Source: Escherichia coli
GTDB lineage: Bacteria; Pseudomonadota; Gammaproteobacteria; Enterobacterales; Enterobacteriaceae
Assembly: GCF_024223415.1 (NCBI RefSeq)
Contig: NZ_CP100500.1
Direction: 5' to 3' (one strand)
DNA: 64,000 nt
Below the pieces are notes generated by a model. It made no database searches. It was not told where the DNA came from and worked only from the letters and a program-made list of their open reading frames with translations. Positions 6,578-6,760 of the stretch are shown piece by piece (the first letter of the stretch is position 1; the number at the start of each line of letters is the position of its first letter). A program made the position numbers and the translations under genes.

Positions 6578-6760
6578 CATATGTCCGGTTTGTTTGTACA
6601 TTTTTTGCACATGTCCGGTTCGCAGAAAGCATGTTTTTATATTTTTCATATAGTTAACTTGCAGAGAAACCGGACATGGATCCCGGAAAATTTTCATAAA
6701 TAGCGAAAACGCGCGAGGTCGACGCCCCGTAACCTGTTGGATCGCCGGAAAGGACCCGAA
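6578..6760 (-). other. cos site: cosB-like R repeats ATGTCCGGTT (6581-6590, 6611-6620 direct; 6668-6677 inverted), cosN 12-nt cohesive end GGGCGTCGACCT on minus strand (6716-6727), cosQ-like flank (6735-6760)
   Basis: Minus-strand sequence GGGCGTCGACCTCGCGCGTTTTCGCTATTTATGAAAATTTTCCGG nearly identical to lambda left end as recalled; other flank CGGGTCCTTTCCGGCGATCCAACAGGTTACG matches lambda right end. Confidence 0.75.

What the first reader, a model, noticed from the sequence alone, without database searches (positions are those of the whole stretch)
6578..6760. Lambda-like cosQ/cosN joined to a different cosB repeat set
The minus strand reads GGGCGTCGACCTCGCGCGTTTTCGCTATTTATGAAAATTTTCCGG, almost identical to the lambda left end as I recall it, with one change in the 12-nt cohesive end (GGGCGTCGACCT versus GGGCGGCGACCT). 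The other flank matches the lambda right end. Immediately beyond, the lambda R sites are replaced by three copies of ATGTCCGGTT (two direct, one inverted), and the small terminase N-terminal HTH region is also diverged. This looks like module exchange between cosN/cosQ and cosB-plus-Nu1.
Basis: partly seen in the sequence, partly recalled or inferred. Interest (0 to 1): 0.35.

Follow-up and report, generated by a model that had tools for sequence, protein, structure and literature searches.

The report
Lambda-type cos site, uncharacterised cosB class
This is the DNA-packaging (cos) site of a lambda-like E. coli prophage: its cutting site is almost lambda's, but the terminase-docking repeats and the matching DNA-binding domain belong to a common, never-dissected class, so it is an ordinary feature with some specialist interest.

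Summary
On the minus strand the window has cosQ (GGGTCCT, 6757-6751) and a 12-nt cohesive-end sequence, GGGCGTCGACCT (6727-6716; G6T versus lambda). A lambda-like I2 tract follows, then three exact ATGTCCGGTT boxes: R3 forward, R2 and R1 inverted. An IHF-like site lies between R3 and R2. terS and terL follow directly.

The boxes are very probably the small-terminase (TerS) binding sites of a lambda-type "complex" cosB.
- In relatives from several genera, R3 sits 50-53 bp from the end and R2 exactly 57 bp further on.
- The boxes stay fixed while the spacers drift.
- Box base 3 co-varies with residue 20 of the TerS recognition helix (Arg with G; Asp, Asn or Thr with T).
- The TerS N-terminal domain is predicted to be a winged helix-turn-helix; its best fold matches are RppC and terminase small subunits.

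Module mixing is real. This cosB occurs with at least four cohesive-end alleles, and the G6T allele occurs with at least six cosB classes, including Rpp-type satellites.

It is not rare: about 15% of complete E. coli genomes carry it. The TerS is identical to that of O157 Sakai Sp4/Sp14 and the PhiR12 phages. I found no published definition of this cosB. Verdict: a new member of a known kind, of modest interest.

The parts
6751..6757 (-). cosQ heptamer GGGTCCT, 23 nt upstream of the top-strand nick position
   Evidence: Read directly. Identical to cosQ of lambda and phage 21 in the alignment. The block cGGGTCCTTT is invariant in 44 distinct upstream regions chosen only by their TerS.
6716..6727 (-). 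Predicted 12-nt 5' cohesive-end sequence GGGCGTCGACCT, the core of cosN, flanked by ..ACG and CGC... The G6T change is at window 6722.
   Evidence: 11 of 12 identical to lambda GGGCGGCGACCT. The G6T allele also occurs in E. coli B771 and ECCNB12-2 and in 13 cos-bearing IMG/VR contigs (a fourteenth hit is an unrelated chance match). The nick positions are inferred by homology, not measured.
6681..6715 (-). cosN-proximal spacer and I2-like tract, CGCGCGTTTTCGCTATTTATGAAAATTTTCCGGGA (bp 13-47)
   Evidence: Identical to lambda up to bp 45 except G17C. Only 4 of 35 columns vary among the TerS-selected relatives. The corresponding tract is annotated as IHF site I2 in the phage 21 record.
6668..6677 (-). 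R3 box ATGTCCGGTT (bp 51-60), forward orientation: the predicted critical TerS site
   Evidence: Exact in 77 of 77 loci chosen by TerS alone, with 0 of 10 columns variable. It lies at bp 50-53 in 12 relatives from several genera. This is the same position as lambda, 21 and N15 R3 (PMC4669245).
6644..6656 (-). I1-like IHF site, core TAACTATATGAAA (bp 72-84), between R3 and R2
   Evidence: Two mismatches to YAANNNNTTGATW, judged by my own reading of the sequence. It is in register with phage 21 I1. An IHF-like core starts at bp 71-73 in 8 of 9 complex-cosB sequences (window included), and is a perfect consensus in Klebsiella L130, E. coli L132 and Salmonella L143.
6611..6620 (+). R2 box. ATGTCCGGTT reads on the + strand, so it is inverted relative to R3 (bp 108-117).
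   Evidence: R2 starts exactly 57 bp after R3 in all complex cosBs examined, the window and eight relatives. That is the same R3-R2 spacing as in phage 21. R2 is exact in 71 of 77 TerS-selected loci.
6581..6590 (+). R1 box. ATGTCCGGTT reads on the + strand (bp 138-147), the same orientation as R2. In lambda, 21 and Monarch, R1 has the orientation of R3.
   Evidence: The same R3> R2< R1< layout occurs in Enterobacter L138, Klebsiella L130 and PhiR12_1. R1 is exact in 49 of 77 loci; most of the others carry AGCCGGACAT.
5994..6503 (-). terS (169 aa), with a GTG start at 6503 and the Shine-Dalgarno sequence GAGGTG at 6513-6508. The N-terminal DNA-binding domain is about aa 1-54 (6342-6503), with the recognition helix TDRQLRRLQK.
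4094..6022 (-). terL (642 aa from the ATG at 6022), overlapping the end of terS
   Evidence: Pfam GpA_ATPase and GpA_nuclease. 65% identical to lambda gpA over the full length.
6687..6896 (-). Phage-21-like segment covering the left flank, cosQ, cosN and I2. Its right-hand limit is the mosaic joint just before R3.
   Evidence: 95.2% identity over 210 nt to M81255 positions 1-207, ending at window 6687, which is bp 41.

Best explanation
This is the cos site of a lambda-family prophage integrated in an E. coli chromosome, and it works like lambda cos.

Proposed mechanism (inferred by analogy with lambda; no step has been shown for this locus):
1. The N-terminal winged helix-turn-helix domains of a TerS dimer bind the ATGTCCGGTT boxes.
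2. R3 (bp 51-60) is the critical anchor.
3. IHF bends the AT-rich I1 site, so that the inverted R2, 57 bp away, folds back next to R3. R1 is an accessory site.
4. This nucleoprotein complex positions TerL, a gpA-family ATPase-nuclease, on cosN. TerL makes nicks staggered by 12 bp, leaving 5' cohesive ends GGGCGTCGACCT.

The boxes together with the TerS recognition helix (TDRQLRRLQK) form a packaging-specificity module different from the lambda, 21 and N15/Monarch modules. Within the class, helix residue 20 appears to read box base 3: Arg goes with G, and Asp, Asn or Thr goes with T.

The cosQ-cosN-I2 segment is shared almost unchanged by all these classes, and recombination joins it to different cosB/terS modules. 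The G6T change is a naturally circulating cosN allele, not a lesion.

What is shown here: the sequence, geometry, conservation, co-variation and predicted fold. What is inferred: protein binding, IHF bending, nick positions and specificity.
For: Anatomy. cosQ, the 12-nt end, the I2 tract, three exact boxes, an IHF-like site, then terS and terL are all present.

The boxes are not a chance repeat. There are three exact copies within 97 bp and none elsewhere in 64 kb.

Conservation in loci chosen only by TerS sequence.
- R3 is exact in 77 of 77 loci, R2 in 71 and R1 in 49.
- Among 44 distinct upstream regions, R3 has 0 of 10 variable columns, while the R2-R1 spacer has 20 of 20 and the stretch from R1 to the ribosome-binding site is only 45% identical.

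Geometry across Escherichia, Klebsiella, Salmonella, Citrobacter, Enterobacter and Leclercia. R3 lies at bp 50-53, R2 starts exactly 57 bp later in every complex cosB, and the IHF-like core starts at bp 71-73. The R3 and R2 positions equal those annotated for phage 21.

Co-variation between TerS and the boxes.
- Helix ...LRRL... goes with (A/G)TGTCCGGTT in the enteric lineages and independently in the distant locus L421.
- Helices ...LRD/N/T/SL... go with xTTCCGGTT across more than 20 helix variants.
- Helix ...LRGL... goes with TTTGCCGGTT.
- Pararoseomonas, with a different helix, has GGGTTGCGGGTTGCG repeats.
- TerS proteins with an N15/Monarch-type N-terminus have GGTTGTTGT boxes.

The class is packaging-competent.
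- An identical TerS with the same boxes occurs in the deposited phages PhiR12_1 to 5.
- The same TerS occurs in O157 Sakai Sp4/Sp14, where Sp4 DNA lacking an intact nu1 gene was found packaged (PMC2669165).

G6T is a live allele. It is linked to at least six cosB classes, including RppC-encoding satellites.
Against: - No binding, footprint or virion-end data exist for this class. The role of the boxes rests on comparative evidence only.
- Lambda TerS itself shows weak specificity in vitro (stated in PMC6739421), so a simple gel shift may be uninformative.
- R1 is inverted relative to the lambda, 21 and Monarch layout. The higher-order complex may therefore differ, or R1 may be dispensable.
- The window's I1 core has two mismatches to the IHF consensus.
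[quoted passage not shown] G6T was absent from all 77 TerS-selected loci and present in 2 of 121 pattern-selected loci, so a fitness cost is not excluded.
- The Arg/G co-variation rests on about two independent events. The enteric RR lineages are each other's closest relatives in the N-terminal domain.
- The tail genes of this prophage lie outside the window, so I cannot say that this particular prophage is viable.
Confidence: 0.85

Rival explanations
1. The cos is a decayed relic. G6T, in the functionally sensitive left half of cosN, together with G17C, cripples nicking. The prophage is then cryptic, and the repeats are simply inherited from a once-functional ancestor.
For: Feiss et al. report that natural variation is concentrated at bp 7-12 and that left-half mutations such as G2C are deleterious (PMC4669245). 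All 77 TerS-selected relatives carry G at position 6. Many E. coli prophages are defective (PMC2669165).
Against: - The same GGGCGTCGACCT end is found in 13 IMG/VR cos sites joined to lambda-type, N15-type, Monarch-type, Rpp/PICI-type and other cosBs, and on two different cosQ-cosN spacers within this class. That spread is hard to reconcile with a private lethal mutation.
- A G6A variant also exists.
- Position 6 is the innermost base, furthest from either nick.
- terS and terL are intact, and the TerS protein is identical to that of isolated phages.
Confidence: 0.08
2. The ATGTCCGGTT boxes are operators for some other DNA-binding protein, such as a late-gene or terS translational regulator, a host factor or a satellite Rpp-like protein, and not TerS sites.
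For: Nothing here shows binding directly. A weak hairpin or terminator-like element overlaps R3 at 6686..6670. PICI-like islands carry the same boxes without terS.
Against: - The boxes occupy the R3 and R2 positions of lambda and 21 to within 1-3 bp, with an IHF-like site between them.
- Their sequence co-varies with the recognition helix of the adjacent TerS, and changes completely when the TerS N-terminal domain is of another type.
- The number of terminator-like hits is no higher than in shuffled sequence.
- Satellites carrying the boxes without terS is what piracy of a helper's TerS would predict.
Confidence: 0.04
3. The cosN-cosB segment of this prophage was acquired from a PICI-like satellite by recombination inside cos, or donated to one. 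On this reading the unusual allele combination is a by-product of phage-satellite exchange and not of phage-phage mosaicism. This refines the main explanation; it is not exclusive of it.
For: - The window shares T6, C17 and the exact cosB subtype, including the 29-nt longer leader, with islands L100 and L101. Those islands encode an AAA_25 replication protein, SSB, ProQ and homologues of capsid proteins E and D.
- RppC-encoding islands carry the same GGGCGTCGACCT CGCGCG allele.
- Most phage-context members of the class have G6 and the shorter leader.
Against: The direction of transfer cannot be inferred. The window's left flank and cosQ-cosN spacer are phage-21-like, not island-like. L341, in the TerS-selected set, has the long-leader subtype with G6.
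Confidence: 0.3

Closest known systems
Bacteriophage lambda cos (cosQ-cosN-I2-R3-I1-R2-R1) with Nu1/gpA terminase
   Same: - cosQ is identical, and bp 1-45 are 95.6% identical.
- The order of subsites is the same, with R3 near bp 50-60, an IHF-like site and then an inverted R2.
- terS and terL follow immediately.
- TerL is 65% identical to gpA, and TerS aa 73-164 is 46% identical to Nu1.
- The N-terminal domain is predicted to be a winged helix-turn-helix matching lambda TerS.
   Different: - The R boxes are unrelated: ATGTCCGGTT here versus CGTTTCC...
- The recognition helix is TDRQLRRLQK versus SIRTIQNWQE.
- R1 has the opposite orientation.
- The cohesive end has T at position 6.
- terS starts at bp 225 instead of 191.
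- No sequence-level match is detectable in the N-terminal 60 aa.
Phage 21 cos and gp1/gp2 terminase (M81255)
   Same: - The left flank through I2 is 95.2% identical over 210 nt.
- R3 and R2 occupy the same positions, 57 bp apart.
- The box cores resemble each other, CATGTCGG in phage 21 and CATGTCCGG here, with 11 of 16 identical in an ungapped alignment to 21 R1.
- I1 is in the same register.
   Different: - The boxes differ at 5 of 16 positions, including the centre.
- The TerS N-terminal domain is not detectably similar, and the C-terminal region is only 40% identical.
- R1 is inverted.
- Phage 21 has the lambda cohesive end.
N15 / Monarch packaging class (Feiss et al. 2015, PMC4669245)
   Same: This is another non-lambda specificity class on a lambda-like cosQ/cosN. 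Like it, the class found here occurs in two forms.
- A 'complex' form with R3-I1-R2-R1, as in this window.
- A 'simple' form with R3 just before terS plus a remote inverted copy inside terS about 200 bp away. The paper places N15 rR2 at bp 249-260.
   Different: The boxes are GGTTGTTGT and the TerS N-terminus is MAFLLNK/MTQHLLNK-type. Monarch-type R1 has the R3 orientation. That specificity has been tested genetically; this one has not.
Rpp-type PICI cos sites (EcCICFT073 family; Fillol-Salom 2019, PMC6739421; Murialdo and Feiss 2022, PMC9026076)
   Same: - They have lambda-like cosQ and cosN with a private cosB.
- RppC-encoding islands in IMG/VR carry the same G6T cohesive end and the CGCGCG flank.
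- RppC is the best structural match of the window's TerS DNA-binding domain.
   Different: In those islands cosB is a single CCACCACCAC-type site followed by rpp at bp 102, with no terS or terL. The window has a three-box cosB followed by a full terminase in a prophage late operon.
cos and Nu1 of E. coli O157:H7 Sakai prophages Sp4/Sp14 (Asadulghani et al. 2009, PMC2669165, Fig. S8)
   Different: Sp4/Sp14 have the lambda cohesive end (G6), a lambda-like left flank and the shorter leader. The published alignment stops at the first bases of R3, and no cosB sites were defined.

Membership tests
Lambda-like cos site (12-nt 5' cohesive ends; cosQ-cosN-cosB) | A cosQ heptamer GGGTCCT upstream of cosN at the lambda spacing | tested here: met
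   GGGTCCT lies at 6757-6751, 23 nt before the predicted nick, as in lambda and 21.
Lambda-like cos site (12-nt 5' cohesive ends; cosQ-cosN-cosB) | A cosN sequence with significant identity to GGGCGGCGACCT and conserved flanking CG dinucleotides | tested here: met
   11 of 12 positions are identical. The flanks ..ACG| and |CGC.. are conserved.
Lambda-like cos site (12-nt 5' cohesive ends; cosQ-cosN-cosB) | Virion DNA actually ends in 12-nt 5' overhangs made by staggered nicks at this site | not testable with these tools
   This needs end sequencing of virion DNA. The PhiR12 records are not deposited cos-to-cos: cos lies at about 24.7 kb in PV340549.
Lambda-like cos site (12-nt 5' cohesive ends; cosQ-cosN-cosB) | Terminase genes of the Nu1/gpA families immediately downstream of cosB | tested here: met
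   Pfam finds Phage_Nu1, GpA_ATPase and GpA_nuclease. TerL is 65% identical to gpA.
Complex (tripartite) cosB of lambda, 21 and Monarch | An R3 site about 48-65 bp from the left end, and repeated R sequences downstream | tested here: met
   R3 is at bp 51-60, R2 at 108-117 and R1 at 138-147. All three are exact 10-mers.
Complex (tripartite) cosB of lambda, 21 and Monarch | An IHF site (I1) between R3 and an inverted R2 | tested here: met
   R2 is inverted. The IHF-like core TAACTATATGAAA at bp 72-84 has 2 mismatches to the consensus. Relatives have perfect or 1-mismatch cores at the same position. IHF binding itself was not tested.
Complex (tripartite) cosB of lambda, 21 and Monarch | R2 oriented opposite to both R3 and R1 (PMC4669245) | tested here: not met
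   R1 has the orientation of R2, not of R3, in the window, Enterobacter L138, Klebsiella L130 and PhiR12_1. In the PhiR12-type majority, R1 overlaps a 1-mismatch forward copy, CATGACCGGTT.
Lambda, 21 or N15 packaging-specificity class | R-box sequence and TerS recognition helix of that class | tested here: not met
   The box ATGTCCGGTT and helix TDRQLRRLQK match none of them. For comparison: lambda has CGTTTCC with SIRTIQNWQE; 21 has CATGTCGG with DPRTIERWQ; N15/Monarch has GGTTGTTGT (PMC4669245). Functional cross-packaging was not tested.
Nu1-type small terminase | An N-terminal winged helix-turn-helix DNA-binding domain of the Nu1/MerR type | tested here: met
Nu1-type small terminase | A C-terminal oligomerisation and TerL-binding region homologous to Nu1 | tested here: met
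   Pfam PF07471 matches aa 49-150 at E 1e-18. The region aa 73-164 is 46% identical to Nu1.
Nu1-type small terminase | Sequence-specific binding of the DNA-binding domain to the R boxes | not testable with these tools
   There is only indirect support, from helix-box co-variation and conservation.
Rpp-type PICI cos | A single R3-like site followed by an rpp gene near bp 102, with no terminase genes, in an island context | tested here: not met
   The window has three boxes, terS at bp 225 and terL. Lysis genes lie upstream and the portal gene downstream. It does share the cohesive-end allele with such islands.

The most novel reading that the evidence does not exclude
The CCGGTT boxes together with the 'MATQ' TerS domain may form a fourth, mutually exclusive packaging specificity of lambda-like cos phages. 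It would extend from enterobacteria to Pseudomonas and alphaproteobacteria, with a single helix residue (position 20) reading box base 3.

Two further parts of this reading:
- Its simple form, R3 plus a co-varying inverted copy about 200 bp inside terS, independently supports Feiss's untested rR2 idea.
- PICI-like satellites carry bona fide copies of this helper cosB without terS, back-to-back with a Monarch-type cos. That would be an Rpp-independent route to pirate two helper classes, and the likely source of this prophage's G6T allele.
Probability: 0.35. Interest if true: 0.5.

Novelty: new member of a known kind. Interest (0 to 1): 0.3.

Why it matters
How cos phages choose their own DNA for packaging is understood genetically for only three specificities: lambda, 21 and N15. 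This locus belongs to a fourth class that is far more common in natural E. coli, found in about 15% of complete genomes, including the O157:H7 prophages that carry virulence genes. Its docking sites had not been defined.

Clean 10-bp boxes, fixed spacing and a one-residue/one-base co-variation give a directly testable recognition code for a small terminase.

The class bears on three practical questions:
- which prophages and satellites can package each other's DNA;
- how virulence cargo moves within prophage pools;
- how to build orthogonal cosmid or packaging systems.

For this particular window, however, the feature is a normal part of a normal-looking prophage.

Tried and rejected
- **Unspecific pattern scan.** The IMG/VR scan with TTCCGGTT N35-65 AACCGGAA was too unspecific. 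Only 2 of about 120 loci passed a cosQ/I2 filter, and neither is a cos. That scan was wasted.
- **Circular first set.** The first IMG/VR set was selected by the boxes themselves, so it says nothing about box conservation. I used it only for cohesive-end alleles, and repeated the conservation test on loci chosen by TerS sequence.
- **Redundant first TerS scan.** It returned only 96-98% identical relatives. Diversity came from the look-up of encoding contigs, the species-level genome scan (8 loci) and a re-ordered alignment.
- **Sequence search of solved structures.** The full TerS gave no meaningful hit.
- **Literature.** I found no description of this cosB class or of the PhiR12 phages. The held library lacks most subscription-journal papers, including the Virology papers of the Feiss laboratory, so absence is not proven.
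- **A transcription terminator or promoter as the explanation of the repeats.** Rejected, because the hits are no more frequent than in shuffled sequence.
- **Overlapping ORFs of 50-84 aa across 6399-6878.** Rejected as coding sequence, because the conservation pattern is box-like with indels in the spacers.
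Full report
**What is there.**
Read on the minus strand, window 6760-6500 has the full anatomy of a lambda-type cos site.
- cosQ, GGGTCCT, lies at 6757-6751.
- A 23-nt spacer ends in ACAGGTTACG.
- The predicted cohesive-end sequence GGGCGTCGACCT lies at 6727-6716.
- The tract CGCGCGTTTTCGCTATTTATGAAAATTTTCCGG follows.
- Three exact copies of ATGTCCGGTT come next: R3 at 6677-6668 in forward orientation, then R2 (6620-6611) and R1 (6590-6581), both inverted.
- A Shine-Dalgarno sequence, GAGGTG, precedes a GTG start at 6503.

The 169-aa ORF is a small terminase; Pfam Phage_Nu1 matches aa 49-150. 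A gpA-family large terminase and a lambda-family portal follow. Upstream lie Rz and a lysozyme. The early region is Rac-like, with an integrase next to ompW. The context is therefore a prophage late operon in an E. coli chromosome. The cos region is 100% identical to strains B771, GF4 and 24A16CRGN010.

**Checking the observation.**
- The quoted 45-mer is present.
- Against lambda it has two changes, G6T and G17C, giving 95.6% identity.
- The last 30 nt before the nick differ from lambda at two positions.
- Further left the flank is phage-21-like: 95.2% over 210 nt to M81255, ending at bp 41.
- The three boxes are the only exact copies in 64 kb.
- The TerS N-terminus has no detectable sequence similarity to lambda Nu1 or 21 gp1.

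**Are the boxes TerS sites?**
Four lines of comparative evidence say yes.

1. *Position.* R3 starts at bp 51 and R2 at bp 108. The R boxes annotated in the phage 21 record lie at bp 50-65 and 107-122. An IHF-like core, TAACTATATGAAA, sits in register with 21 I1.
2. *Conservation in an unbiased sample.* In 77 IMG/VR loci retrieved only through the TerS N-terminal peptide, R3 is exact in 77, R2 in 71 and R1 in 49. Across the 44 distinct upstream regions, R3 has no variable column. The R2-R1 spacer varies at all 20 columns, and the leader after R1 is only 45% identical.
3. *Geometry across genera.* In Klebsiella, Salmonella (two lineages), Citrobacter, Enterobacter, Leclercia and other E. coli lineages, TerS is 60-81% identical. 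R3 lies at bp 50-52, R2 starts exactly 57 bp later, and the IHF-like core starts at bp 71-73 in all but one. The cohesive ends and spacers differ.
4. *Co-variation.*
   - Helices of the form ...LRRL... go with (A/G)TGTCCGGTT in five enteric lineages and, independently, in the distant locus L421.
   - Helices ...LR(D/N/T/S)L... go with xTTCCGGTT in more than twenty helix variants from enterobacteria, Pseudomonas and Azospirillum.
   - Helix ...LRGL... goes with TTTGCCGGTT.
   - A Pararoseomonas relative with a different helix has GGGTTGCGGGTTGCG repeats.
   - TerS proteins with a related C-terminus but an N15/Monarch-type N-terminus have GGTTGTTGT boxes.

   The Arg/G pairing has at least two independent origins, but no more can be claimed, because the enteric RR lineages are close relatives.

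**The protein.**
The N-terminal 51 residues align colinearly with the Nu1 helix-turn-helix, with window residue n corresponding to lambda residue n+1. Window R19 and K23 therefore fall on lambda Q20 and E24, the two residues that Feiss's genetics ties to lambda/21 discrimination (PMC4669245). The co-varying R20 lies between them.

The C-terminal region (aa 73-164) is 46% identical to Nu1, and TerL is 65% identical to gpA. This is a distinct terminase lineage, not lambda with a patch.

**Module exchange.**
Similarity to 21 and lambda stops at the I2/R3 boundary.

This cosB is joined to several different cohesive ends:
- GGGCGGCGACCT, in 105 of 121 pattern-selected loci;
- GGGCGGGAGCGG;
- GGGCGACGACCT;
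- GGGCGTCGACCT;
- still others in other genera.

Conversely, an exact search for the G6T end found it in 13 IMG/VR cos sites:
- next to lambda-type R boxes with a MEVNKK... TerS;
- next to N15-type boxes;
- next to Monarch-type boxes;
- next to a fifth box type, AGATCCTTTCTT;
- next to CCACCACCAC sites followed at bp 102 by an RppC homologue (E 1.4e-17);
- next to this class.

G6T is a circulating allele and not damage.

This qualifies the published generalisation that natural variation is confined to bp 7-12 (PMC4669245). Positions 1-5 are indeed constant in everything I saw with a lambda-like end, but position 6 takes G, T or A.

**How common, and what is known.**
The cosB segment alone matches 829 of 5426 complete E. 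coli genomes, often twice per genome, including O157:H7.

The TerS protein is identical to three others:
- WP_000235436.1;
- the TerS of the deposited phages PhiR12_1 to 5;
- the Nu1 of O157 Sakai prophages Sp4 and Sp14.

The cos of Sp4/Sp14 was aligned to lambda in Fig. S8 of Asadulghani et al. 2009. That alignment ends at ...GGGATCCATGT, the first bases of R3, and marks only cosQ, cosN and an IHF site. The paper reports that Sp4 DNA, which lacks an intact nu1 gene, is nevertheless packaged, presumably by the Sp14 terminase (PMC2669165). That is the only experimental hint that this class is packaging-competent.

In the papers I could search, only the lambda, 21, N15/Monarch and PICI-Rpp specificities are described.

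**Differences from the textbook layout.**
R1 has the orientation of R2, whereas in lambda, 21 and Monarch it has that of R3 (PMC4669245). In the majority PhiR12-type subtype, R1 overlaps a one-mismatch forward copy, AACCGGACATGACCGGTT, so either reading is possible there. The window subtype lacks this and has a leader 29 nt longer.

**Beyond the window.**
Distant members of the class have a 'simple' cosB. It consists of a tandem TTCCGGTTCCGGTT just before the start codon, at bp 52-53, and often an inverted copy at nt 173 or 182 of terS. The variable bases of that inverted copy match those of the upstream box: AACCGGAA, AACCGGAC in L421, and AACCGGCA twice in L394. This parallels the N15 R3/rR2 arrangement, where rR2 lies at bp 249-260 (PMC4669245).

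PICI-like islands also carry this cosB. L100, L101 and L007 encode an AAA_25 replication protein, SSB, ProQ and homologues of capsid proteins E and D. L101 has the cosB without terS, back-to-back with a convergent Monarch-type cos. The window shares its T6/C17/long-leader haplotype with these islands, so phage-satellite exchange is a plausible source, at about 0.3 probability.

**Verdict.**
This is a genuine lambda-family cos site of a widespread but functionally uncharacterised cosB/TerS specificity class, carrying a rare but circulating cohesive-end allele.
- Novelty is that of a new member of a known kind.
- Interest is modest, about 0.3.
- The mechanism is inferred by analogy and comparative evidence; binding, bending, nicking and specificity remain untested.

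Noticed in passing
L101:1-480 (minus strand); also L100:3565-4328, L007:1510-1840 and L357:9505-10335: PICI-like islands encode an AAA_25 replication protein, SSB, ProQ/FinO and homologues of lambda capsid proteins E and D. They carry the same three-box cosB with the G6T end. L101 has it with no terS, followed by a convergent second cos of Monarch type (GGTTGTTGT boxes). L357 pairs an RppC-type cos with a Monarch-type cos. This suggests satellites that copy helper cosB modules directly.
   Followed up: partly
L394, L396, L421, L440, L345, L346 (first 200 nt of terS and the 30 nt upstream): In 'simple cosB' relatives, an inverted copy of the upstream box lies inside terS at nt 173 or 182, about 200 bp from R3. 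Its variable bases track the upstream box: TTCC with GGAA, GTCC with GGAC, and TGCC with GGCA (twice). This is an analogue of N15 rR2 and comparative support for that proposed accessory site.
   Followed up: partly
L008:1453-1500, L007:1510-1560; L132, L345, L346 upstream regions: Other cohesive-end variants are attached to this cosB class. GGGCGGGAGCGG occurs in 9 of 121 IMG/VR loci and in E. coli CFSAN029787 and an O121 strain. A quite different cosN region, ...AAACACCG(A/G)GGG(T/A)C..GCAGACGCGCAAAAA, occurs in E. coli L132, Enterobacter mori and E. whittamii. The exact ends of these are not predictable from lambda.
   Followed up: no
L003:40-47 (lambda bp 40-47): Lambda's own cos contains TTCCGGTT at the I2/R3 junction. 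This is an exact match to the core box of the TTCC variants of this class, but about 13 bp closer to cosN than their R3. The window has TTTTCCGG at the same place. It may be coincidence, or a vestige of shared ancestry.
   Followed up: no
window 7495-7875 (minus strand): A 126-aa ORF with a lipoprotein-like N-terminus and a TonB_C domain (Pfam E 4e-13) sits between the lysis genes and cos. RefSeq annotates the homologue as 'TonB family protein'. It occupies a moron-like position where other relatives carry iss/bor, perC or ylcI.
   Followed up: no
window 10797-10950 (minus strand): Two adjacent prophage tRNA genes lie downstream of the Q antiterminator region. ARAGORN calls them tRNA-Lys(ttt) and tRNA-Met(cat). 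The related ECCNB12-2 prophage is annotated with tRNA-Arg and tRNA-Ile at the corresponding place, so the cargo tRNAs differ or are named differently.
   Followed up: no
window 1-9491 versus 9500-26300: The prophage is itself mosaic. The head and lysis region is 95-99% identical to the B771 prophage, which has a DNA-polymerase/DUF5906-type early region. The window's early region is instead Rac-like, with a RecE-type exonuclease, kil, Rha, YdaT, DUF1376, P, RusA and Q. Its integrase (25167-26297) abuts ompW (26343-26981).
   Followed up: partly
window 6670-6686 (minus strand): A short hairpin, CCGGG-ATCCATG-TCCGG followed by TTTCTCT, overlaps R3. In Klebsiella L130 the equivalent is a perfect 7-bp inverted repeat, CCGGAAA/TTTCCGG. 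The end of I2 and R3 may therefore form a conserved inverted pair, or a partial fourth half-site. The terminator-like hit count is not above chance.
   Followed up: no
L346:1201-1764, P0101, L349, L350: The MATQ-type DNA-binding domain is also found fused to C-terminal regions that do not resemble Nu1, in E. whittamii, Azospirillum and Pararoseomonas. Conversely, a Nu1-like C-terminus close to the window's is fused to N15/Monarch-type domains (P0069, P0076). The DNA-binding domain and the TerL-binding part of TerS appear to be exchanged independently.
   Followed up: no
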